This document shows positions 11,250-61,445 of a stretch of DNA of 64,000 bases, one piece after another. The position numbers and the translations under genes are program-made. Within the stretch, counting starts at the first letter, position 1, and every line of letters begins with the position of its first letter. The notes beneath the pieces were generated by a model that searched no databases, had not been told where the DNA came from, and was given only the letters and a program-made list of their open reading frames with translations. Origin of the DNA: Escherichia phage JS98; sequence record NC_010105.1. One strand, 5' to 3'.

Positions 11250-11864
11250 TCAGTAAGAAAGAACGGAAAGATTCCAAATGGTGTAATTATTCCATTTAGG
11301 ATTTCTCTCAATAGAGTCTACGCGCAGCGTAGTTCCCGCAGGGAACATCATCTCATCTTCATCATTAATTAATTGTAAGTTTGCTACACGTGTAGATTCA
11401 GGAAATGCGCCTGGGAACTCTTCAGGGGGCGCAGCACATAACATTTTAAAGATTTCTTCCTGATAATTGTACACAAATGGCGCATCATTAATACAAAAGA
11501 TATTAAATGTGCCGTAGAAGTTATAAGATGCGAAATTCCTTGCTACGTTGAAGTCTTTAGAGAAGCTCATCACACGATCGAATTCAATTACCGCACCCAC
11601 ACACATTGTGGACTCTAGATACTTCAGGGTCTTTTTAGATATACCACGATAGAGCTTATCAGGCACTACAGAAGTCAGGTTCTTACGAATAATTTTGTTC
11701 AGAGTTTCCTGGATAGAATCAGGTTTATTTTCCATACACTGCCAGAGCGTGCTCTGTTCTAAATCAGAATACACCTCATCAATTTCTATCTGGGTATTCT
11801 CACGGAAATCGTCGCATTTGGCATTGTTGATAAATTCTGCTAATTTATGGCTTGGATATAACAT
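11250..11864 (-). CDS. modA: ADP-ribosyltransferase, ModA-like
   Basis: 204 aa; R (LYRG), S-x-S (MSFSK) and E-x-E (EDE) motifs; paralog of next gene; T4 position. Confidence 0.65.
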   Translation of the reverse strand: MLYPSHKLAEFINNAKCDDFRENTQIEIDEVYSDLEQSTLWQCMENKPDSIQETLNKIIRKNLTSVVPDKLYRGISKKTLKYLESTMCVGAVIEFDRVMSFSKDFNVARNFASYNFYGTFNIFCINDAPFVYNYQEEIFKMLCAAPPEEFPGAFPESTRVANLQLINDEDEMMFPAGTTLRVDSIERNPKWNNYTIWNLSVLSY

Positions 11865-11889
11865 ATTATTCTCCTCAGTTGATAGAAAG

Positions 11890-11919
11890 ATAGTACCACA
11901 AGCTTCCTTGCCTGTAAAC
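11890..11919 (-). promoter_or_regulatory. early promoter
   Basis: GTTTAC-N18-TACTAT on minus strand, just upstream of modA-like gene. Confidence 0.5.
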
Positions 11920-12488
11920 TAAAAATCCAACATTTTTAAATGAATTATTTTGTACTCGATGTCGTATGGGTCTCTTTTGATAGTTTCGATTTCAACAATC
12001 TCAAATCGTGATAGGCTAGAGACCATGAACTCACATTCGGTTTCGACCATATCATAGAGGTCAATACGGGTTTCATCTATTTCAAGTTCGTCCGCACTCC
12101 CTGCAAGAACAAGGTCGATAGCATGATTGTAGTAGTCAAAAATGAAGGGTGCATTCCTGAGACTTAAAATGGTTTTGGTTCCATATTCCCATGACCCTGC
12201 GAACTGGCAAGCCTGAGAGTATTGTGTACTAAAAGAAGTAACCCGGCCAGGAGACCATTGACATCCTACTGAAAGGAGCTCTAATTGCCCAAGTTCTCTG
12301 GTGGTAATCCCACGATAAAGCTCTACCGGAACCACTGAAGTGACATGCTTACGAACCAGTTTGTCTAGGTCGTAATGGAAGTTAGGGTCTTTTTTGGCAT
12401 CCAGACATTTCTCTAACAACGCTTGTTCAGATTTTGAAAATTTGGAATTGATTCGGTCTTGATAAAGACATTTTTGTTCGATGTTCAT
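11919..12488 (-). CDS. modB: ADP-ribosyltransferase, ModB-like
   Basis: 189 aa; LYRG, TSFST and ECE motifs. Confidence 0.65.
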   Translation of the reverse strand: MNIEQKCLYQDRINSKFSKSEQALLEKCLDAKKDPNFHYDLDKLVRKHVTSVVPVELYRGITTRELGQLELLSVGCQWSPGRVTSFSTQYSQACQFAGSWEYGTKTILSLRNAPFIFDYYNHAIDLVLAGSADELEIDETRIDLYDMVETECEFMVSSLSRFEIVEIETIKRDPYDIEYKIIHLKMLDF

Positions 12489-17173: not shown

Positions 17174-17608
17174 TCAACCTCGGTTCATAAAGGCATTAAA
17201 AATCTGGTCGTCAATTGAATAAACCGGAGCTTCCAGAATTTTCAACAGACTGTTTTTGATATACTTGCTAGGGATATCCATATTAACGCGGTCGTTCAAT
17301 TCGTTGCCCGGGTGGATATCTTTAAATTCGAATCCTTCAAATTCAACCTTGTCCGGAAACCCGTCAGCGAAAAAATAAACCAATTGGTGCATTGCATTGA
17401 GCGAAAATAATTTAGACTTAACAGCAATAAGTTCTTGCCAATGGTTTAATTCTCTGTTAAGAAGTTTATGAGCGAATACAATTCTATCGTCGCTATCAAC
17501 AATAAAATAACCTAGGTACTGATGGTCGTCGCTCCAAAACATCCTGTATGCTTGTGCGTTTGGATTTTTACAACGAAGCTTTTTAATAACCAAAGTTCTG
17601 TTAATCAT
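17174..17608 (-). CDS. hypothetical protein
   Basis: start re-placed to ATG 17608 (MINRTLV), 1 nt after upstream stop. Confidence 0.4.
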   Translation of the reverse strand: MINRTLVIKKLRCKNPNAQAYRMFWSDDHQYLGYFIVDSDDRIVFAHKLLNRELNHWQELIAVKSKLFSLNAMHQLVYFFADGFPDKVEFEGFEFKDIHPGNELNDRVNMDIPSKYIKNSLLKILEAPVYSIDDQIFNAFMNRG

Positions 17609-17609
17609 T

Positions 17610-17903
17610 TTACTCACCTGTAACCTCTTTAACAATGTTTTTGTTATCGAAATTAGCGTCACAATACAAAACATAGTTGTACTGCATAACACCGGTTGAA
17701 GCTAATTGGTCGGACACTTCTTTAACCATGTCAGGACGGTCACGTTTAGTGATGTTCATGATATCGGCATAAATCTGATGTTCAACTGACTCTTGGTCTG
17801 CAGTCATAGACCATTCACAAAGGTCTTTATCCAATCCGGCAGTTACCGGAGCCGTGCCACATGATGCTACTGTAAGGATTGCTGCGATTAATAACTTTTT
17901 CAT
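17610..17903 (-). CDS. putative lipoprotein
   Basis: 97 aa; MKKLLIAAILTVASC signal peptide with lipobox; SD GAGGAG; early promoter upstream. Confidence 0.5.
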   Translation of the reverse strand: MKKLLIAAILTVASCGTAPVTAGLDKDLCEWSMTADQESVEHQIYADIMNITKRDRPDMVKEVSDQLASTGVMQYNYVLYCDANFDNKNIVKEVTGE

Positions 17904-53478: not shown

Positions 53479-53757
53479 TTATAGCTTTTTAAGCTTACGA
53501 CAATAAGAATAGAACACGTCGTTAAAATTATATTCAACCCAATTCCTCTGTATAGGCGAGGTAATGGAAAGCATATAATGTGCTTTAATTAAATCCATTC
53601 CATTTTTATTAGGGCATTCTTTATTATTAGCATTATACGTCGCTGCTACAACTTCTATCTCTCTTTTGTAAGCCGCATCATCCATGATGGGCGAAAGAAC
53701 AATATAAGAGATGGCCACAGCGAACGCTAGAATTAAAATCTTTGAATTTAGGTCCAT
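53479..53757 (-). CDS. hypothetical signal-anchor protein
   Basis: 92 aa; N-terminal TM. Confidence 0.4.
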   Translation of the reverse strand: MDLNSKILILAFAVAISYIVLSPIMDDAAYKREIEVVAATYNANNKECPNKNGMDLIKAHYMLSITSPIQRNWVEYNFNDVFYSYCRKLKKL

Positions 53758-53764
53758 AGTACCC

Positions 53765-54337
53765 TCAACTCGTTATTTCTATCCAGTGCTTCCTGCACAA
53801 TGACACGTAAGAATCGTTGCCACCTATAGAAACTTGGGCTCCGTCCTTAATTGCGACACCATCTTGGACCCTAGCAGTCATAGTAGCTTTACGGCCGCAA
53901 TGGCACACACCTTTGTACTCAACGAGTTTATCTGCCGTAGCGAGTAATTCAGCAGAACCAGGAAACAGTTTACCCTGAAAATCAGTTCTTAGCCCGTAAC
54001 ACATAACCGGAACATTATAATTGTCTACTATCTTTGCCAGTTGTTTTATCTGTGCAGGTTCTAAGAACTGTGCTTCATCCACAAACACACAGTGGATATC
54101 TTTTTGAGATTCAGCCCAACGATAGAACTCGTATAGGTCCATATCCGGAGTCACTGCATTAGCCTCTTGACTAATCCCTATACGAGACGAAATGGTATGG
54201 CTTGATTCTCTATTGTCTATCGCAGGCTTTAAAAGGAGCACGCCCATACCATGTTCTTTGTAGTTATGAGCTGCCGTTAGCAATGAAGCGGTCTTACCTG
54301 AGTTCATTGCCGCATAATGAAAATAAAGTTGAGCCAT
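53765..54337 (-). CDS. tk: thymidine kinase
   Basis: 190 aa; P-loop MNSGKT; zinc ribbon CHCGRKAT...CRKH; collinear with T4 Tk. Confidence 0.92.
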   Translation of the reverse strand: MAQLYFHYAAMNSGKTASLLTAAHNYKEHGMGVLLLKPAIDNRESSHTISSRIGISQEANAVTPDMDLYEFYRWAESQKDIHCVFVDEAQFLEPAQIKQLAKIVDNYNVPVMCYGLRTDFQGKLFPGSAELLATADKLVEYKGVCHCGRKATMTARVQDGVAIKDGAQVSIGGNDSYVSLCRKHWIEITS

Positions 54338-54346
54338 ATTACCTTC

Positions 54347-54532
54347 TTAAAGCGTATTCACATAAGCTATTAATTCGTTTTCTTTCTCATCAAACCGATC
54401 AGCAAATTCTTCTTGCTGTTCAGGAGATAGCGGACCATATTCATCGTAAAAAGCGTTTGCTTCGGTATGTTCATCCAAAAGCTCGTGAATAAGCTCAAAC
54501 AATCTACTTTTCTGACTAATACTTAAACTCAT
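54347..54532 (-). CDS. hypothetical acidic protein
   Basis: 61-aa ORF. Confidence 0.35.
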   Translation of the reverse strand: MSLSISQKSRLFELIHELLDEHTEANAFYDEYGPLSPEQQEEFADRFDEKENELIAYVNTL

Positions 54533-54756
54533 TTAGGTTCACCATATCGCACAAATTTAGGATGTTCGCAATAACCAGAATGAAAACCTTCACCCTTATG
54601 ATTGGAACATCCTTTATTAGAACAGTACCACCAGTAATCAAATTCGCATTCCATTCCATCGTTGCATAAAGCTGCGATTACTGGCCATTCGCATTTTTCA
54701 CATTTAGCCGTTTTAAGAATTCTGGCTTGGCTCATAACCATTGCACCTTTAAGCAA
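54529..54756 (-). CDS. Cys-rich small protein
   Basis: 75 aa; 10 Cys. Confidence 0.4.
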   Translation of the reverse strand: MLKGAMVMSQARILKTAKCEKCEWPVIAALCNDGMECEFDYWWYCSNKGCSNHKGEGFHSGYCEHPKFVRYGEPK

Positions 54757-54944
54757 TATTCTTCTACATGCTGTTTACGTTTATTTTTATCTATAAAAGT
54801 ATATTCAACGTATTCACCAATATACCATTTATCGGTGTTATGCTGACTTTTTATAGGGCATTTAGTTACTCGAGTTTCGGTCCAGCGCCGAATAATTTCC
54901 GCTTTGTTTTTAGGGTCAAACGGATGTGGGTAATGTGCTTTCAT
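54732..54944 (-). CDS. hypothetical protein
   Basis: 70-aa ORF. Confidence 0.35.
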   Translation of the reverse strand: MKAHYPHPFDPKNKAEIIRRWTETRVTKCPIKSQHNTDKWYIGEYVEYTFIDKNKRKQHVEEYCLKVQWL

Positions 54945-55395
54945 AATCCACCACTATTAAATCAATATCAGGGGTAAACATATCAATTAATTGAGAAACC
55001 TTGTCCCAATCACCACCAGCAATACCACAACCAATGCGAGGAATATAAATTCTTGGTTTAAACAAAAGGTCATTTGCTTGTAGATTTAATTCTATCATAC
55101 AGTTTACTAAAGCACCGTAATCAAGATTAGGGCCTGGTTCGTATTGGGTGTATAAATTATAGCACATTGCAAATCCATTAGGCTTATGTTTAAAAACAAT
55201 AGACATATCACCTAATTTATCACGAGAGCCGTATTCGGTAGTAGTCTTATCAATTTCTAAAATTTTAGGATAAGCTCTTGCTAATTGACCCGCTACACCT
55301 GAACCCATAGTGTGAAAACAATTACACCCATGTGCAATAATATTACCTTGGAGAAACAGGGCGACGATATCGCCCTTAATATAATCAATAATCAT
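54916..55395 (-). CDS. macro-domain protein (ADP-ribose binding/hydrolase fold)
   Basis: 159 aa; IKGDIVALFLQGNIIAHGCN...GSGVAGQLARAYP and CGIAGG glycine loops. Confidence 0.6.
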   Translation of the reverse strand: MIIDYIKGDIVALFLQGNIIAHGCNCFHTMGSGVAGQLARAYPKILEIDKTTTEYGSRDKLGDMSIVFKHKPNGFAMCYNLYTQYEPGPNLDYGALVNCMIELNLQANDLLFKPRIYIPRIGCGIAGGDWDKVSQLIDMFTPDIDLIVVDYESTLPTSV

Positions 55396-55748
55396 TTAGA
55401 GTTTAGCCCTCGGTTGTAAGAGTCAACGAGTCTGTCTACCATAGACGCGCACATTTCTTTGTACTTTTTATCAGATGGAACACATTCAGTAACGTTTAGA
55501 CGTTGCTCGTATCTTTTAGAAAGAGTTTTCTCTTTCATTCGGCGATGCTCGACGTCGTTCTGCCCATCTTTAAAAGCAGCTGTTATTTTTGAACTGAATT
55601 CAATAACACATTCAGTATTACTCGGATGACAATAATCTTTTGCTGTACGGGTGGCATACTCGACAATTGAATTATTTGTATCATCAACCTGTGATGCTAA
55701 TACTCCCGGAGCAATCAACATAAGCGCTATAGTCATCTGTTTAATCAT
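55392..55748 (-). CDS. secreted/periplasmic hypothetical protein
   Basis: 118 aa; signal peptide MIKQMTIALMLIAPGVLASQ. Confidence 0.45.
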   Translation of the reverse strand: MIKQMTIALMLIAPGVLASQVDDTNNSIVEYATRTAKDYCHPSNTECVIEFSSKITAAFKDGQNDVEHRRMKEKTLSKRYEQRLNVTECVPSDKKYKEMCASMVDRLVDSYNRGLNSK

Positions 55749-56288
55749 TTAATATACCGCCTCAAACATCTTTTTAGATTTTAGGTAATTGGCCTTTTCT
55801 AGAACTTCGGAAGCATATTTACTGCCTGCTTTGACATTCCAGCCCGCATTATAAGAAGCAATCGCTTTTCTCAGGTCACCTTTGTGAACATTAATCCAAT
55901 AAGACAGCTCAATGTAGGCCCAAGAGGCACTGTTCTGTCGTTTTTGGACCATACGAATTATTTCTTTGTCTGACATCTTCCAACCTACCTGTTGAACACG
56001 ACTTCTTAACGTAGGCAAGTAATTTTGGAACATGCCATAAGCATGGTGCTTATCTTTATTTAAACCTTGATTAATTCCAGCAGATGATTCCTGCCATAAT
56101 AATCCGGCCATTATATATCCTAATCCTTTTTGATTAGGGTTTTCTTTGAACTTTCCCGACTTTTGGTATTGTTCACCGAAAGCATACGCATAATGTAAAT
56201 TATCGAGTTGTTCATTACTGAAAGTAGGCTCTACGCTATAGGCAGACATACTAACTGTCAATAGTAAAGTGGCTAATACTTTTTTCAT
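55749..56288 (-). CDS. secreted lytic transglycosylase-like (SLT-domain) protein
   Basis: 179 aa; signal peptide; ESS...AYGMFQ...YNAG SLT-like motifs. Confidence 0.5.
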   Translation of the reverse strand: MKKVLATLLLTVSMSAYSVEPTFSNEQLDNLHYAYAFGEQYQKSGKFKENPNQKGLGYIMAGLLWQESSAGINQGLNKDKHHAYGMFQNYLPTLRSRVQQVGWKMSDKEIIRMVQKRQNSASWAYIELSYWINVHKGDLRKAIASYNAGWNVKAGSKYASEVLEKANYLKSKKMFEAVY

Positions 56289-56300
56289 GAGACCTCATTA

Positions 56301-56759
56301 TTAAAGATAGATTACTTTCGTGCTGGTTTTACCTTCTAAACGTTTAGAGTTAACAAATGCCATACGACATTTTAATGAATATCCTTTATCAGGATGTTTA
56401 CGATCTACGGTCATACCCAACCATAAGGTTTTATCGGTAATCTCGAGACGCAGTGGACGATACACTTTACCTGGGACAATTTCAGATTCTACGTCAGGAA
56501 GAGGCTCCTGGATTAAAAATTCATGGATTTCTTTAACATGATTGTGGAGCTTCTTGAACAAAGAGAAAACATATTTTTCGTCAATTTCACGTTGGATAGC
56601 ACGGTCCAACAAGTGATTAGAGTACTTAATAAAGAAAGCTGGGACACCGCTCTTAATGGCGGCTTTTTTGATGGACGCGTTAAGTTCACGAAATTCGGTT
56701 TCGAACTGACGACGTAATTTGTTGCGGCGGATGAATACTTCTGAATTAATTTCTGACAT
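56301..56759 (-). CDS. regB: RegB endoribonuclease
   Basis: start re-placed to ATG 56759 (MSEINSEVFIRRNKLRR) with SD AGGAG; matches T4 RegB as recalled. Confidence 0.88.
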   Translation of the reverse strand: MSEINSEVFIRRNKLRRQFETEFRELNASIKKAAIKSGVPAFFIKYSNHLLDRAIQREIDEKYVFSLFKKLHNHVKEIHEFLIQEPLPDVESEIVPGKVYRPLRLEITDKTLWLGMTVDRKHPDKGYSLKCRMAFVNSKRLEGKTSTKVIYL

Positions 56760-56787
56760 TTTGTAATCTCCTGTAGTTGATAGGTCT

Positions 56788-56816
56788 ATAGTACCATGTC
56801 TACAGGAGATGTAAAC
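56788..56816 (-). promoter_or_regulatory. early promoter (GTTTAC-N17-TACTAT)
   Basis: immediately upstream of regB. Confidence 0.6.
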
Positions 56817-56821
56817 TGCTT

Positions 56822-57100
56822 TTAGTATTTTTCTTCGGGTTGGAAAACAGAACGACAGGCCCACATGGAGGCTTCTTTCAAGCGTTCTATTGCCGTACGA
56901 ATCTGGGCGAGACGTTCATGAGTGAGGTCGAATTCTTCATCACTCATTTTATCAACACCTGAGCATGTAAAGGCTTCAACGTATTCTTCTTCTAATGCTT
57001 TAAAGATTAAGCCTAATCGAACTTCAGCATCTTTAATGGCATTCACTTTACTGATTTTATCGTCGGTATGTGGCTTGTAACCCTTGATATCTTCAATCAT
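56822..57100 (-). CDS. hypothetical protein
   Basis: 92-aa ORF. Confidence 0.4.
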   Translation of the reverse strand: MIEDIKGYKPHTDDKISKVNAIKDAEVRLGLIFKALEEEYVEAFTCSGVDKMSDEEFDLTHERLAQIRTAIERLKEASMWACRSVFQPEEKY

Positions 57101-57315
57101 TTCACTTCCTCATCAGATGCAATATCATATTCTACAAAACGAAGGCCATCGTATCCACCACTAACAGAGATATACGTAGTCGGGTAAACAATTTCTTTAC
57201 CATTCCATTGGCCACCGTCCCAACATTCCATAAAGCCTTGTTCGCCCTGTTCGTGGAACCAGTCAACAAACATCTTCAGGGCTTCATCAGAGCCTTCAAT
57301 TGTCAATTTAGACAT
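57097..57315 (-). CDS. hypothetical protein
   Basis: 72-aa ORF. Confidence 0.35.
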   Translation of the reverse strand: MSKLTIEGSDEALKMFVDWFHEQGEQGFMECWDGGQWNGKEIVYPTTYISVSGGYDGLRFVEYDIASDEEVK

Positions 57316-57604
57316 ATTTTTTCCAGTCAGAAATCATATGAATCTCTTGGTCATACGTCAAGAGACTGCGAGTTATAATACCCTTACAAGGCCCAGAGAT
57401 GAACTCGAGGGTGAAGTAAGGAACCTGTTTCATTAATCGGATACTAGGAGCGTGGCATCTAAAACGAGAGCCCTTAAAGGGCCCTGACATGAATACGTAT
57501 TCTAATGGATAGAAATAAGCATATTCGAAATTTGCAGTAAGGTCCTCTCTTCGAACCTTACGTGAGAAATAACAGAACTCAAAAAGTTCTTCATCGGTCA
57601 TCAT
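57308..57604 (-). CDS. hypothetical protein
   Basis: 98-aa ORF. Confidence 0.35.
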   Translation of the reverse strand: MMTDEELFEFCYFSRKVRREDLTANFEYAYFYPLEYVFMSGPFKGSRFRCHAPSIRLMKQVPYFTLEFISGPCKGIITRSLLTYDQEIHMISDWKKYV

Positions 57605-58146
57605 TGCATTCCTATCACAAAGAACAGAGGGCGAGTAGTTTGATTGCTTTCTTCACATGATGCACGACAGCAATGTTGCACCACCTTTATATGGGCATCA
57701 TAAATCTTATCCATATCAGGTGTTTTAACAGGCTCATCAATTATATACAGAACCCGTGAAAGTGATAATCCACGGAATTTGCATGCAGTGTTACCAATAA
57801 AACTACGAACAGAATCAGTGTACAAACGGTACTTAATACTTTCTGTATGGTTATTAAAATATTCCTTTCGGATTGCAGCAGCCGAAACATTAGCATACGC
57901 GGCGCAATTAGACAAAATAATTACAGTCCCGCCACCTGCGAGCCAATCAGACGCAAAAATGGATACTGCCCTTGTTTTACCAGATTGGCGTCCACCATCA
58001 AGTTTTAGGGTGCAGCATTCTTTAAACAGGGTTTGTGAATCAGGTACATAAAACCCACTATTACAAATGTGTTCTACTCTAGCATCAGAATGGTTTGCAA
58101 AAGCATTCATCAGGGATAGATAACTACCGGTTAAAAACGTTTTCAT
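57601..58146 (-). CDS. small P-loop NTPase-like protein
   Basis: start placed at ATG 58146 (MKTFLTGSY); GGRQSGKT Walker A-like, LYIIDEP Walker B-like. Confidence 0.4.
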   Translation of the reverse strand: MKTFLTGSYLSLMNAFANHSDARVEHICNSGFYVPDSQTLFKECCTLKLDGGRQSGKTRAVSIFASDWLAGGGTVIILSNCAAYANVSAAAIRKEYFNNHTESIKYRLYTDSVRSFIGNTACKFRGLSLSRVLYIIDEPVKTPDMDKIYDAHIKVVQHCCRASCEESNQTTRPLFFVIGMQ

Positions 58147-58309
58147 AATTGTCTCTTTTTTAAGTTGGGGCCATTCCTTGGCACATAATTCATCCATGTA
58201 TCCGTATGTAAACCCTTTACCGCACTTGGGCTCGACCTTATTACAGGTAGGGAAAGGTCCATCACTCAGAGGACGCGACGTTCATGAGGAGAGGGCCGGC
58301 TTGCCTTTA

Positions 58310-58609
58310 TTAGAAAGAACCAGAACCTTTAATTGTGTTCTGGCGACCTTTATTTTCCAATTCGGAGTGGTCGATTTCGTATGCTTGGGCTACACCAAAG
58401 GCTTTTTTAACTTTAGCTAAAGAGCCTTTAGATGTAACAATATTAAAAGTATTACCTTTAGTAAAATCAACCAAATCCACTTGTACGCCCTGTTTACCGA
58501 GGCTTGCTACAATAGCATCAACATATTCTTGGTCTAAGGTGCCTTGGACACCTATTTGGAATGCTTTAGGAGCTTTGGCTTCTGTAATAAATTCTTGATA
58601 AGTTTTCAT
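58310..58609 (-). CDS. capsid internal protein (IPII-like) with N-terminal capsid-targeting sequence
   Basis: 99 aa; MKTYQEFITEA leader. Confidence 0.7.
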   Translation of the reverse strand: MKTYQEFITEAKAPKAFQIGVQGTLDQEYVDAIVASLGKQGVQVDLVDFTKGNTFNIVTSKGSLAKVKKAFGVAQAYEIDHSELENKGRQNTIKGSGSF

Positions 58610-60766: not shown

Positions 60767-61216
60767 TCAAAAGAGCGAATCTAAAACCTTAAACATCGAC
60801 GGGCCCATGACATATTCCCATTGCGGACGTTTAATCAAAGCGAAAGCGTCGAATTCCGGAATCGTACGACCATCAGGGAACGTATGGTAAGCTGTACATT
60901 TGCAATTCTTGAACTGCTCGTGTTCGACAGGCACAGTATATAAGAACAGGTGTAGATTCTTATTGCTTGAATATTTGAACTCACCTAGGTCTTTCAGGAA
61001 CGCAGGGTCGTATGCCGTGAATCCAATCTCTTCTTCGGTTTCACGCATTGCTGCTTGAATAGGCTCTTCACCTGGTTCGACATGACCTTTAGGAATGTCC
61101 CATTTATGACGCATGTTCTCTGGATTACGAGAGCCTGTTACACGACCCATAACCAATTCTTTATCGGCGGTCATGAACAAAATACCAGCAGATAGTTCTT
61201 TCACTTTCTTACTCAT
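60767..61216 (-). CDS. nudE: Nudix hydrolase NudE
   Basis: start re-placed to ATG 61216 (MSKKVKEL); Nudix box [22 protein letters not shown]. Confidence 0.85.
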
Positions 61217-61445
61217 CGTCTCGTTCCCATGATTGTTTAAAGATATCTCGTATAATAATTTCAACACATGTTTCTGTTGACGGACTTTCACTATCAGATA
61301 TTTGGACCATATAATCAGAAATAGGTCGGAACAAATCCAAGTCACTTTCTAAATCTTCTTTGATTTTCTCTTCTGATGTCCCGGTGTCATAGGAATACAG
61401 ATAAGAATCGCATGACTCGGATTTAATATAAATCGCAATACTCAT
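61209..61445 (-). CDS. hypothetical acidic protein
   Basis: 78-aa ORF. Confidence 0.35.
   Translation of the reverse strand: MSIAIYIKSESCDSYLYSYDTGTSEEKIKEDLESDLDLFRPISDYMVQISDSESPSTETCVEIIIRDIFKQSWERDDE

What the first reader, a model, noticed from the sequence alone, without database searches (positions are those of the whole stretch)
54916..55395. Macro-domain protein in a phage that also encodes ADP-ribosyltransferases
The 159-aa protein has the two glycine-rich loops of a macro domain (ADP-ribose binding or hydrolysis). It could reverse host ADP-ribosylation-based defences, process NAD-derived signals, or regulate the phage's own Mod modifications.
Basis: partly seen in the sequence, partly recalled or inferred. 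Interest (0 to 1): 0.55.

Follow-up and report, generated by a model that had tools for sequence, protein, structure and literature searches.

The report
Phage macrodomain that undoes DarT DNA-tagging
This gene is the counterpart of phage T4's tk.4 (adfM), a small macrodomain enzyme that most likely strips ADP-ribose tags placed on phage DNA by the bacterial DarTG2 defence, so it is a real but already described counter-defence gene.

Summary
The 159-aa ORF at 54916..55395 (-) is real and is a macro domain. It scores above the Pfam Macro cut-off. The AlphaFold2 model has pLDDT 93.6, and its best structural matches are TARG1, Poa1p, BT1257 and the DarG macrodomains.

The window is a T4-like Dhakavirus. 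The gene sits between vs and tk.3 and is the ortholog of T4 tk.4 (56% identity, same gene order). A 2025 preprint (HIDEN-SEQ) showed that T4 tk.4, renamed adfM, is the single T4 gene needed to resist the DarTG2 defence. DarTG2 ADP-ribosylates thymidine in phage DNA.

The best explanation is therefore a free-standing DNA ADP-ribosylglycohydrolase that acts as an orphan antitoxin. One refinement: the position of the catalytic lysine of DarG and TARG1 holds an invariant glutamine (Q84). This is the arrangement in Streptomyces SCO6735, whose Gln85 and Asn27 are essential for removing ADP-ribose from thymidine. So the protein works like DarG's macrodomain but is not a DarG. It lacks the lysine, the DarT-binding domain and a darT neighbour.

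ModA/ModB-like transferases are indeed in the window, but nothing links the macrodomain to them.

In passing, the tk.4 ORF is a recombination cassette swapped between phage genera.

Novelty: already known. Interest is low to moderate.

The parts
54916..55395 (-). tk.4 / adfM ortholog: 159-aa single-domain macrodomain protein
   Evidence: The ORF is listed. It matches Pfam Macro at 34.2 bits and PHROG 335 at E 1.2e-70. It is 56% identical over its full length to T4 Tk.4 and has the same gene order as JS10, T2 and T4. The AF2 model has pLDDT 93.6.
55318..55332 (-). Codons for H22-G23-C24-N25-C26, an active-site strand end. N25 is the conserved macrodomain asparagine.
   Evidence: H22, G23, N25 and C26 are invariant in 46 homologues. 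N25 aligns with SCO6735 Asn27, DarG Asn and PhiKZ AdfM N23. The N27S mutation in SCO6735 and the conserved-Asn mutation in PhiKZ AdfM reduce activity (PMC9411070; PMC13309987).
55285..55314 (-). Glycine-rich loop 1 (H28-TMGSGVAGQ-37), the ADP-ribose-binding loop after strand 2
   Evidence: G33 and A35 are invariant. The loop aligns with the MGAGIA / MGKGIA loops of TARG1 and DarG.
55144..55158 (-). Codons for N80-L-Y-T-Q84. Q84 occupies the catalytic-lysine position of TARG1 and DarG and equals Gln85 of SCO6735.
   Evidence: N80, Y82, T83 and Q84 are invariant. The family motif NlYTQ aligns with TARG1 YLITK. In the 8-sequence alignment this column reads Q in the window protein, T4 Tk.4, SCO6735 and BT1257, and K in TARG1, Mtb DarG, Taq DarG and PhiKZ gp104.
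55006..55041 (-). Glycine-rich loop 2 (P119-RIGCGIAGGDW-130), the diphosphate-binding loop
   Evidence: P119, G122, G124 and W130 are invariant. The motif is near-identical to PRIGCGLAGG of SCO6735 and BT1257 and to PRIGCGL of TARG1. TARG1 Asp125 is replaced by Ala, as in SCO6735.
55392..55395 (-). ATGA overlap of the vs stop codon and the tk.4 start codon, suggesting translational coupling within one polycistronic unit
   Evidence: Read directly from the sequence. A GAGG lies 12-16 nt upstream of the ATG. No promoter signal above the shuffled background was found (15 sites against 15.8 expected).
55392..55748 (-). vs (valyl-tRNA synthetase modifier), the upstream neighbour that fixes the synteny
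   Evidence: It matches PHROG 1256 at E 4.3e-34 and is 100% identical to JS10 Vs.
54732..54944 (-). tk.3, the downstream neighbour, overlapping the tk.4 3' end by 29 nt
   Evidence: It matches PHROG 2008 at E 9.9e-39 and is 100% identical to JS10 Tk.3.
11250..12488 (-). Two adjacent ModA/ModB-like ADP-ribosyltransferase genes (11250..11864 and 11919..12488). These are context for the finding's title, not shown to be functionally linked.
   Evidence: They match PHROG 832 at E 1.5e-44 and 3.5e-37. T4 ModB finds both by tblastn at 33% identity.

Best explanation
The gene is the Dhakavirus ortholog of phage T4 tk.4, recently renamed adfM (anti-DarT factor, macrodomain).

Proposed mechanism: it encodes a free-standing ADP-ribosylglycohydrolase of the TARG1/DarG/SCO6735 (ALC1-like) macrodomain class. 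It is made early in infection as part of the regB-vs.1-vs-tk.4-tk.3-tk transcription block. When the host DarTG2 toxin-antitoxin defence fires, DarT2 attaches ADP-ribose to thymidine in TNTC motifs of single-stranded phage DNA and blocks replication. The macrodomain binds the ADP-ribose through its two glycine-rich loops and cleaves the ribose-thymine bond. This releases free ADP-ribose and restores replicable DNA. In effect it is an orphan antitoxin carried by the phage.

Catalytic detail: the centre is of the SCO6735 type, not the DarG type. An invariant glutamine (Q84), held by the conserved asparagine (N25), positions the distal ribose in place of the lysine used by DarG and TARG1. Hydrolysis is therefore expected to be water- or substrate-assisted, not lysine-driven.

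Shown here: the ORF, the fold, the class, the residue equivalences and the orthology with synteny.
Shown elsewhere: T4 tk.4 is required for DarTG2 resistance. SCO6735 and PhiKZ AdfM remove ADP-ribose installed by DarT (DarT2 in the PhiKZ AdfM assay) from DNA in vitro.
Inferred: this protein has the same activity, and Q84 and N25 are essential for it.
For: Domain and fold:
- Pfam Macro scores above its cut-off.
- The AF2 model has pLDDT 93.6 and pTM 0.88, with alternating strands and helices.
- The top Foldseek PDB hits are TARG1 (TMt 0.84), Poa1p, BT1257, Taq DarG and Mtb DarG (TMt 0.76-0.78), all at probability 1.00.

Class:
- The single sequence matches BT1257 (1.4e-10), Poa1p (6e-10), SCO6735 (4e-8) and the Mtb DarG macrodomain (5.6e-6).
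- The family profile matches BT1257 2e-18, TARG1 5e-17, SCO6735 1e-14 and DarG 1e-12.
- The best NCBIfam and PADLOC models are both DarG, matched over the macrodomain part only.

Orthology:
- 56% identity over the full length to T4 Tk.4.
- Identical gene order regB-vs.1-vs-tk.4-tk.3...tk in JS10, T2 and T4.

Function of the ortholog:
- tk.4 was the single significant hit in a T4 transposon screen on a DarTG2 host.
- A clean deletion is sensitised to DarTG2 (10.1101/2025.11.20.689424).
- T4 lacking adfA and adfN stays DarTG2-resistant, which had predicted such a factor (PMC11825919).

Catalytic residues:
- Q84 and N25 are invariant in 46 homologues.
- They align with SCO6735 Gln85 and Asn27.
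- The Q85A, Q85E and N27S mutations abolish or nearly abolish removal of ADP-ribose from thymidine in DNA (PMC9411070).

Precedent: a phage macrodomain, PhiKZ AdfM, removes DarT2-installed ADP-ribose in vitro and rescues DarT2 toxicity (PMC13309987).
Against: - No biochemistry exists for T4 Tk.4 or for this protein. The T4 evidence is genetic, comes from a preprint, and concerns a protein only 56% identical.
- The enzymes with proven activity on thymidine-linked ADP-ribose are distant: SCO6735 about 27% identity, DarG 22-26%, and PhiKZ AdfM barely alignable by BLASTP.
- The canonical catalytic lysine is absent. The Gln-type mechanism rests on one mutagenesis and molecular-dynamics study of SCO6735.
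- SCO6735 Q85A also inhibits DarT by direct interaction, so part of the protection could be non-catalytic.
- Enzymes of this class also act on Glu/Asp-linked protein ADP-ribose and on uracil-linked RNA ADP-ribose, so DNA need not be the only substrate.
- The tk.4 allele here differs from the JS10 and T4 alleles in residues ~33-82. Its specificity could differ.
Confidence: 0.78

Rival explanations
1. The macrodomain reverses or tunes the phage's own ADP-ribosylations. It would remove ADP-ribose, or ADP-ribose-linked RNA, placed on host RNA polymerase, S1, EF-Tu and other proteins by Alt, ModA and ModB. It would act as the eraser partner of the phage's writers.
For: ModA/ModB-like genes are in the same window. 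Writer/eraser pairing is common in ADP-ribosylation systems (general knowledge, reviewed in PMC9503650).
Against: - Alt, ModA and ModB modify arginine. This N-glycosidic linkage is not cleaved by TARG1/MacroD-type macrodomains (established knowledge). The closest structural relatives here act on Glu/Asp esters, thymine and uracil.
- The two gene sets lie 43 kb apart and are not co-distributed. Mod homologues occur in 1062 records, and the top ten organism names are enterobacterial or T4-type. The macrodomain occurs in 2761 records, including many Pseudomonas, Vibrio, Acinetobacter and Aeromonas phages.
- In T4 the reported tk.4 phenotype was specific to the DarTG2 host.
Confidence: 0.05
2. It is a small-molecule enzyme. 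It would be the 'A1pp' ADP-ribose-1''-phosphate phosphatase of the legacy annotation, an O-acetyl-ADP-ribose deacetylase, or a degrader of NAD-derived immune signals (Thoeris-type cyclic ADP-ribose isomers).
For: RefSeq names it 'phosphatase; contains A1pp phosphatase motif', and PHROG 335 is labelled 'phosphatase'. It resembles yeast Poa1p, an ADP-ribose-1''-phosphate phosphatase (E 6e-10; Foldseek rank 3). Comparative genomics has proposed that phage Macro domains process soluble ADP-ribose derivatives (PMC9503650).
Against: - The 'phosphatase' label derives from the old domain name (A1pp), not from an assay.
- No source of ADP-ribose-1''-phosphate is known in T4-type infection, and no Tpt1/KptA-type gene was seen near the locus.
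- The only phenotype reported for the ortholog is DarTG2 sensitivity.
- No macrodomain has been shown to degrade Thoeris signals in the papers read.
Confidence: 0.05
3. It is primarily, or additionally, an RNA de-ADP-ribosylase. It would remove uracil-linked (or other) ADP-ribose from phage transcripts modified by RNA-targeting host transferases. Protection against DarT2 would be one facet of a broader nucleic-acid repair role.
For: TARG1, DarG and especially the Gln-type SCO6735 efficiently reverse uracil ADP-ribosylation of single-stranded RNA (PMC13036486). The window protein shares the SCO6735-type active site.
Against: - No bacterial defence that ADP-ribosylates uracil in RNA was found in the papers read.
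- CmdT, the known anti-T-even RNA transferase, modifies adenine, and that modification is described as irreversible.
- T-even phages remain sensitive to CmdTAC (abstract of PMC11618068).
Confidence: 0.1
4. It protects without catalysis. It would bind and inhibit DarT2 directly, or shield ADP-ribosylated DNA, as AdfA and AdfB do for DarT1.
For: Catalytically dead SCO6735 Q85A inhibits DarT in vitro more strongly than dead DarG or TARG1. AdfA and AdfB act by binding the toxin.
Against: - All residues needed for hydrolysis are invariant across 46 homologues down to 39% identity. That argues for selection on catalysis.
- The protein lacks the C-terminal DarT-binding domain of DarG. It matches only positions 1-142 of the 338-position DarG model.
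- AdfN, the analogous NADAR factor, requires enzymatic activity and does not bind the toxin.
Confidence: 0.04

Closest known systems
Phage T4 Tk.4 = AdfM (anti-DarT factor, macrodomain; NP_049723; bioRxiv 10.1101/2025.11.20.689424)
   Same: It is the ortholog. It shows 56% identity over the whole length with no gaps. The gene order is the same, between vs and tk.3. The invariant residues are the same, including N25 and Q84. Both fall in the same PHROG.
   Different: It is 4 aa longer at the C terminus and overlaps tk.3 by 29 nt instead of 4. Residues ~33-82 belong to a different allele class. No phenotype has been measured for this allele.
Streptomyces coelicolor SCO6735 (PDB 5E3B) and Bacteroides BT1257 (PDB 2FG1/2AFC): Gln-type ALC1-like macrodomains
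   Same: All are free-standing single macrodomains of about 155 aa. They share the YIKGD start, the H-x-C-N strand, the N-x-x-x-Q catalytic motif (Q84 = Gln85) and the PRIGCG-AGG-W loop. None has the TARG1 Lys/Asp dyad. SCO6735 cleaves thymidine-linked ADP-ribose on DNA and protects against DarT.
   Different: Identity is only about 27-28%. The phage protein lacks the 5-6-residue 'mobile loop' insertion after the Gln that carries Lys89 in SCO6735. SCO6735 is a cellular, DNA-damage-inducible gene, not a phage gene.
DarG antitoxin of DarTG2 (NCBIfam NF048014; PDB 5M31, 5M3E, 5M3I)
   Same: It is the same macrodomain class, and DarG is the best-scoring NCBIfam and PADLOC model. TM-scores are 0.76-0.78. 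The presumed substrate is the same (DarT2-modified thymidine), and so is the biological logic (antitoxin activity).
   Different: The catalytic Lys80 is replaced by Gln. There is no C-terminal DarT-binding domain and no adjacent darT. The score of 27.8 bits is far below the 250-bit equivalog cut-off. The loop motifs differ (PRIGCG against PPLGxGNGGL).
PhiKZ gp104, also named AdfM (Cell Rep 2026, PMC13309987)
   Same: It is a phage-encoded stand-alone macrodomain that counters DarTG2. The asparagine is conserved (N23 = N25).
   Different: It belongs to a different lineage. gp104 is Lys-type (FPTK) and clearly DarG-like (E 9e-25 to Mtb DarG). BLASTP aligns only 33 residues of it with the window protein. 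gp104 is imported into a phage nucleus, and T4-like phages have none.
Human TARG1/OARD1 (PDB 4J5R/4J5S)
   Same: It is the best structural match (TMt 0.84). It shares the KGD start and the PRIGCG loop, and it also removes thymidine- and uracil-linked ADP-ribose.
   Different: TARG1 uses a Lys84/Asp125 dyad. The window protein has Gln and Ala at those positions.
T4 AdfN (gp30.3, NADAR) and AdfA (gp61.2)
   Same: These are the other anti-DarT factors of T-even phages. AdfN is likewise an orphan antitoxin-like glycohydrolase.
   Different: The folds are unrelated. They act on DarT1 and guanosine, not on DarT2 and thymidine.

Membership tests
Macro domain (Pfam PF01661) | Profile score above the curated gathering threshold | tested here: met
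   The score is 34.2 bits against a cut-off of 22, E 2.7e-8. Residues 22-136 cover positions 2-117 of the 118-position model.
Macro domain (Pfam PF01661) | Three-layer alpha/beta/alpha macro fold | tested here: met
   The AF2 model has pLDDT 93.6 and pTM 0.88. There are 173 Foldseek PDB hits with E<=0.001. The 50 listed are macrodomains, plus designed enzymes built on the macro-fold protein TTHA0132.
Macro domain (Pfam PF01661) | Two glycine-rich ADP-ribose/diphosphate-binding loops | tested here: met
   The loops are MGSGVAG (30-36) and IGCGIAGG (121-128). G33, G122 and G124 are invariant and align with the corresponding loops of TARG1, DarG and SCO6735.
Macro domain (Pfam PF01661) | Binds ADP-ribose | not testable with these tools
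   This needs ITC, a thermal shift assay or co-crystallisation.
T4 Tk.4 / AdfM orthologous group | Full-length sequence similarity to T4 Tk.4 | tested here: met
   56% identity and 74% positives over 155 aa with no gaps, E 8e-69. PHROG 335 matches at E 1.2e-70.
T4 Tk.4 / AdfM orthologous group | Conserved position between vs and tk.3 in the regB...tk block | tested here: met
   The same order is seen in JS10, T2, T4, Sf21 and MN04.
T4 Tk.4 / AdfM orthologous group | Required for plating on DarTG2-expressing hosts | not testable with these tools
   This is shown only for T4. It needs a deletion mutant of this phage.
ALC1-like (TARG1/DarG/SCO6735/Poa1p) macrodomain class | Closest sequence and structure relatives all belong to this class | tested here: met
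   The first 13 phmmer matches (those with E below 0.01) and the first 15 profile matches to the PDB belong to this class. The same holds for Foldseek ranks 1-18.
Lys-type thymidine-ADPr hydrolases (DarG Lys80 / TARG1 Lys84) | Catalytic lysine after the central strand (T-K motif) | tested here: not met
   The position holds Gln84, invariant in 46 homologues.
Lys-type thymidine-ADPr hydrolases (DarG Lys80 / TARG1 Lys84) | TARG1 Asp125 partner of the dyad | tested here: not met
   The window has GCGIA where TARG1 has GCGLD.
Gln-type hydrolases (SCO6735 / BT1257 subgroup) | Gln at the catalytic position, held by the conserved Asn of the H-x-C-N strand | tested here: met
   Q84 = Gln85, N25 = Asn27 and H22 = His24. 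The residue numbering was checked against the 5E3B chain, which has an offset of 20. Mutational importance is reported in PMC9411070.
Gln-type hydrolases (SCO6735 / BT1257 subgroup) | Extended lysine-bearing 'mobile loop' after the Gln (Lys89 in SCO6735) | tested here: not met
   The phage proteins have a 6-column gap where SCO6735 and BT1257 carry MKTGSKG / IYKDSKG.
DarG antitoxin (NCBIfam NF048014 equivalog; PADLOC DarG) | Score above the equivalog cut-off | tested here: not met
   The score is 27.8 bits against a 250-bit cut-off. The PADLOC DarG score is 28.4 bits.
DarG antitoxin (NCBIfam NF048014 equivalog; PADLOC DarG) | C-terminal DarT-binding domain | tested here: not met
   The protein has 159 aa and matches only positions 1-142 of the 338-position model.
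DarG antitoxin (NCBIfam NF048014 equivalog; PADLOC DarG) | Encoded next to a darT toxin gene | tested here: not met
   The neighbours are vs and tk.3.
PhiKZ-type AdfM (gp104) | Close DarG2-like sequence (FPTK, PPLGxxNGGL motifs) | tested here: not met
   gp104 matches Mtb DarG at E 9e-25, but BLASTP aligns only 33 residues of it with the window protein (E 9e-4).
ADP-ribose-1''-phosphate phosphatase (Poa1p; legacy 'A1pp phosphatase' label) | Phosphatase activity on ADP-ribose-1''-phosphate | not testable with these tools
   Only sequence and fold similarity to Poa1p is available. The label in RefSeq comes from the domain name.

The most novel reading that the evidence does not exclude
The tk.4 locus could be an actively exchanged counter-defence cassette. 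At least three allele classes differ mainly in residues ~33-82 of the macrodomain, and they are swapped precisely at the ORF borders between Dhakavirus and Tequatrovirus genomes. These alleles may be tuned to different DarT2 variants, to different modified nucleic acids (thymidine in DNA against uracil in RNA), or to evasion of a host factor that senses AdfM. The lysine-free, Gln-type catalytic centre would then mark a phage-wide family of broad-spectrum nucleic-acid de-ADP-ribosylases, distinct from the DarG-derived PhiKZ AdfM.
Probability: 0.2. Interest if true: 0.45.

Novelty: already known. Interest (0 to 1): 0.2.

Why it matters
ADP-ribosylation of phage DNA by DarTG is a widespread bacterial defence. 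Knowing which phages carry the eraser helps predict host range, which is relevant to phage therapy against E. coli, Shigella and Pseudomonas.

For this window the value is mainly correct annotation. The identical protein in phage MN04 is labelled 'hypothetical protein'. RefSeq orthologs are labelled 'phosphatase'. One preprint calls tk.4 a 'putative thymidine kinase'. The best-supported name is AdfM, an anti-DarTG2 macrodomain.

Two modest additions come out of this analysis:
- The T4-type AdfM has a SCO6735-like glutamine in place of the DarG lysine. It is therefore not simply a captured DarG macrodomain, unlike PhiKZ AdfM.
- The gene behaves as a recombination cassette across phage genera, as expected for a gene in an arms race.

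Tried and rejected
- **Promoter and terminator scan of 53500-58500.** It found 15 promoter-like sites against 15.8 expected from shuffles, so it says nothing about expression.
- **Five-sequence MAFFT alignment.** It misaligned the central strand.
- **HMM alignment of PhiKZ gp104 to the family profile.** It put the FPTK motif two residues out of register. An 8-sequence alignment that included both DarG structures and SCO6735 resolved the catalytic column.
- **PDB sequences not directly retrievable.** I recovered SCO6735, BT1257, TARG1 and DarG fragments from printed HMMER alignments. I checked the SCO6735 numbering against residues named in PMC9411070.
- **Search for an AdfA (gp61.2) homologue in the window.** Only the last 14 residues match. 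The ORF at that position belongs to a different PHROG.
- **Search for biochemistry on T4 Tk.4.** I looked in the DarG/TARG1/SCO6735 literature, the synthetic-probe paper and the CmdTAC paper and found none.
- **Link to ModA/ModB.** Considered and rejected on linkage chemistry and phyletic distribution.
- **Not done.** I did not run the large representative-protein search or a second structure prediction, because the conclusion did not depend on them.
Full report
**Observation**

It lies in a dense run of minus-strand genes. Its start codon overlaps the stop codon of the upstream gene (ATGA, 55392-55395). Its last 29 nt overlap the start of the downstream gene.

The protein matches Pfam Macro (PF01661) at 34.2 bits against a gathering score of 22, over almost the whole model. 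Both glycine-rich loops are present: MGSGVAG at residues 30-36 and IGCGIAGG at residues 121-128. G33, G122 and G124 are invariant in an alignment of 46 homologues that reach down to 39% identity. tblastn finds relatives in 2761 phage genome records.

**Genomic setting**

The 2.5 kb around the gene is 98.9% identical to Escherichia phage MN04 and 97% identical to JS10-like phages of the genus Dhakavirus (Straboviridae, Tevenvirinae).

In JS10, T2 and T4 the homologous gene is tk.4. It lies in the conserved order regB - vs.1 - vs - tk.4 - tk.3 ... tk. The window protein is 56% identical to T4 Tk.4 over the entire length without gaps and 77% identical to JS10 Tk.4. RefSeq annotates tk.4 as 'phosphatase; contains A1pp phosphatase motif'. 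This label comes from the old name of the macro domain, not from an assay.

Two ModA/ModB-like genes lie at 11250..11864 and 11919..12488.

**Fold and class**

An AlphaFold2 model built on the 46-sequence alignment is confident: mean pLDDT 93.6, pTM 0.88, with only the last five residues disordered. Foldseek against the PDB returns the following, all at probability 1.00:
- human TARG1 (TM 0.84 normalised to the target)
- yeast Poa1p
- Bacteroides BT1257
- the DarG macrodomains of Thermus aquaticus and Mycobacterium tuberculosis (TM 0.76-0.78)

By sequence, the single protein hits BT1257 (1.4e-10), Poa1p (6e-10), SCO6735 (4e-8), Mtb DarG (5.6e-6) and TARG1 (6e-3). The family profile raises these to 2e-18, 2e-15, 1e-14, 1e-12 and 5e-17. 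All belong to the ALC1-like (TARG1-like) macrodomain class.

The best NCBIfam and PADLOC models are both DarG. Only the N-terminal macrodomain part matches (positions 1-142 of 338), and the 27.8 bits are far below the 250-bit equivalog cut-off.

**What is known about the ortholog**

A full-text search for 'Tk.4' found a bioRxiv preprint of November 2025 (HIDEN-SEQ, 10.1101/2025.11.20.689424). It reports that:
- tk.4 was the single significant hit in a T4 transposon library on a DarTG2-expressing host.
- A clean tk.4 deletion made T4 DarTG2-sensitive.
- The gene was renamed adfM (anti-DarT factor, macrodomain). The proposed mechanism is enzymatic removal of ADP-ribose from DNA.

This filled a gap left by earlier work. 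T4 lacking both adfA (61.2) and adfN (30.3, a NADAR enzyme that counters DarTG1) was still DarTG2-resistant, which implied a further factor (PMC11825919).

Independently, the PhiKZ macrodomain gp104 was also named AdfM. It was shown in vitro to remove DarT2-installed ADP-ribose from a TNTC oligonucleotide and to rescue DarT2 toxicity (PMC13309987). No paper I could find reports biochemistry on T4 Tk.4 itself.

**Catalytic centre**

In the family alignment, H22, G23, N25, C26, N80, Y82, T83, Q84, P119, G122, G124 and W130 are invariant.

The profile alignment to TARG1 puts the family motif N-l-Y-T-Q on TARG1 Y-L-I-T-K. Q84 therefore occupies the position of the catalytic Lys84. I recovered the SCO6735, BT1257 and DarG sequences from printed PDB alignments. 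I confirmed the SCO6735 numbering through His24, Val25, Asn27, Lys34, Gln85, Gly87 and Lys89.

In an 8-sequence alignment, the catalytic column reads:
- Q in the window protein, T4 Tk.4, SCO6735 and BT1257
- K in TARG1, both DarGs and PhiKZ gp104

TARG1's Asp125 is Ala in the window protein, as in SCO6735.

For SCO6735, Q85A and Q85E abolish removal of ADP-ribose from thymidine and N27S nearly abolishes it. The proposed mechanism is a glutamine-positioned, water-mediated hydrolysis without a lysine (PMC9411070). N25 also corresponds to N23 of PhiKZ AdfM, the residue whose mutation reduces that enzyme's activity.

So the T4-type AdfM works like DarG's macrodomain but is built like SCO6735. It lacks SCO6735's lysine-bearing loop insertion after the glutamine. 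It is a different lineage from PhiKZ AdfM, which is plainly DarG-derived (E 9e-25 to Mtb DarG) and hardly alignable with the window protein by BLASTP.

**Most likely mechanism**

The protein is made as part of the regB-to-tk transcription block, probably translationally coupled to vs. This is inferred from the ATGA overlap; the promoter scan was uninformative.

It binds ADP-ribose attached by host DarT2 to thymidine in single-stranded phage DNA and hydrolyses the ribose-base bond. That releases ADP-ribose and allows replication to continue.

- Shown here: fold, class, residue equivalence and orthology.
- Shown elsewhere: the T4 phenotype, and the activity of SCO6735 and PhiKZ AdfM.
- Inferred: the activity of this particular protein.

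I put this at about 0.78.

**Rival explanations**

- **Erasing the phage's own Alt/ModA/ModB marks.** This is unlikely. Those marks are arginine-linked, a bond this class is not known to cleave. Mod homologues occur in 1062 phage records, and the top ten organism names are enterobacterial or T4-type. The macrodomain occurs in 2761 records, including 184 Pseudomonas, 135 Vibrio, 93 Acinetobacter and 86 Aeromonas phages.
- **Small-molecule role (A1pp phosphatase, O-acetyl-ADP-ribose, Thoeris signals).** This rests only on the legacy label and on similarity to Poa1p.
- **Additional RNA role.** This is plausible, because TARG1 and SCO6735 also remove uracil-linked ADP-ribose from RNA (PMC13036486). 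However, no matching host toxin is known.
- **Non-catalytic inhibition of DarT2.** This cannot be excluded, because dead SCO6735 inhibits DarT. The strict conservation of catalytic residues argues against it as the main mode.

**Seen in passing**

- **The tk.4 ORF is a recombination cassette.** The flanking proteins RegB, Vs.1, Vs, Tk.3 and Tk are 98-100% identical to JS10 but only 45-73% identical to the Tequatrovirus Sf21. Tk.4 is 77% identical to JS10 and 93% identical to Sf21. A sliding nucleotide comparison shows the switch at the ORF borders. Identity to JS10 falls to 43% in codons ~33-82. The window-type segment occurs in some Dhakaviruses (MN04, dhabil) and in RB3, RB9, Phaginator and UFV13. 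Such allele swapping fits an arms-race gene but was not pursued further.
- **No recognisable AdfA.** At the 61.2 position there is a PHROG 8539 gene that shares only the last 14 residues with T4 gp61.2.

**Verdict**

The feature is a known counter-defence gene, T4 tk.4/adfM, in a close relative of well-studied phages, so its novelty is 'already known'. The Gln-type active site and the cassette behaviour are minor refinements worth a sentence in an annotation, not a discovery. Interest 0.2.

Noticed in passing
window 54916-55395 with flanks 53765-56759; loci L001 (JS10), L004 (Sf21), L003 (T4): The tk.4 ORF is a recombination cassette. The flanking genes are 98-100% identical at protein level to Dhakavirus JS10 and 45-73% to Tequatrovirus Sf21, but Tk.4 is 77% to JS10 and 93% to Sf21. 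Nucleotide identity switches at the ORF borders, and identity to JS10 drops to 43% in codons ~33-82. tk.2 also looks partly exchanged (87% to Sf21 against 49% to T4).
   Followed up: partly
window 17174-17692 (-): T4 has 61.2/adfA (an anti-DarT1 factor) at this position. The window instead has a 172-aa ORF of PHROG 8539 that shares only its last 14 residues (100% identical) with T4 gp61.2. No recognisable AdfA is present in the window.
   Followed up: partly
window 55392-55748 (-) and 55392-55395: The vs gene (valyl-tRNA synthetase modifier) ends in an ATGA overlap with the tk.4 start, which suggests translational coupling. In T4, vs was reported as the gene most strongly depleted in minimal medium, in the same study that defined adfM.
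   Followed up: no
window 60767-61345 (-): This is a NudE-like Nudix hydrolase (PHROG 1185, E 2.6e-73). From my own knowledge, T4 NudE hydrolyses ADP-ribose, the product of the macrodomain reaction. The phage may therefore both release and dispose of ADP-ribose. This was not tested.
   Followed up: no
literature / L003 3923-4390; PhiKZ gp104 sequence from PMC13309987: Two unrelated-lineage phage macrodomains now share the name AdfM. PhiKZ gp104 is Lys-type and DarG-like (FPTK; E 9e-25 to Mtb DarG). T4 Tk.4 and the window protein are Gln-type and SCO6735-like (NLYTQ).
   Followed up: yes
L005 (MN04) 1501-1980; L001 6917-7384; bioRxiv 10.64898/2026.06.19.733364: Annotation is inconsistent. The 100% identical MN04 protein is labelled 'hypothetical protein'. 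RefSeq orthologs are labelled 'phosphatase'. A 2026 preprint calls T2 tk.4 a 'putative thymidine kinase' and reports that its mRNA pairs with the host sRNA ArcZ in RIL-seq.
   Followed up: no
window 56301-56864 (-): The mechanical ORF list gives regB as 187 aa from an upstream GTG. The annotated RegB of JS10 and MN04 (152-153 aa) corresponds to 56301..56759 and is 100% identical over 152 aa.
   Followed up: yes
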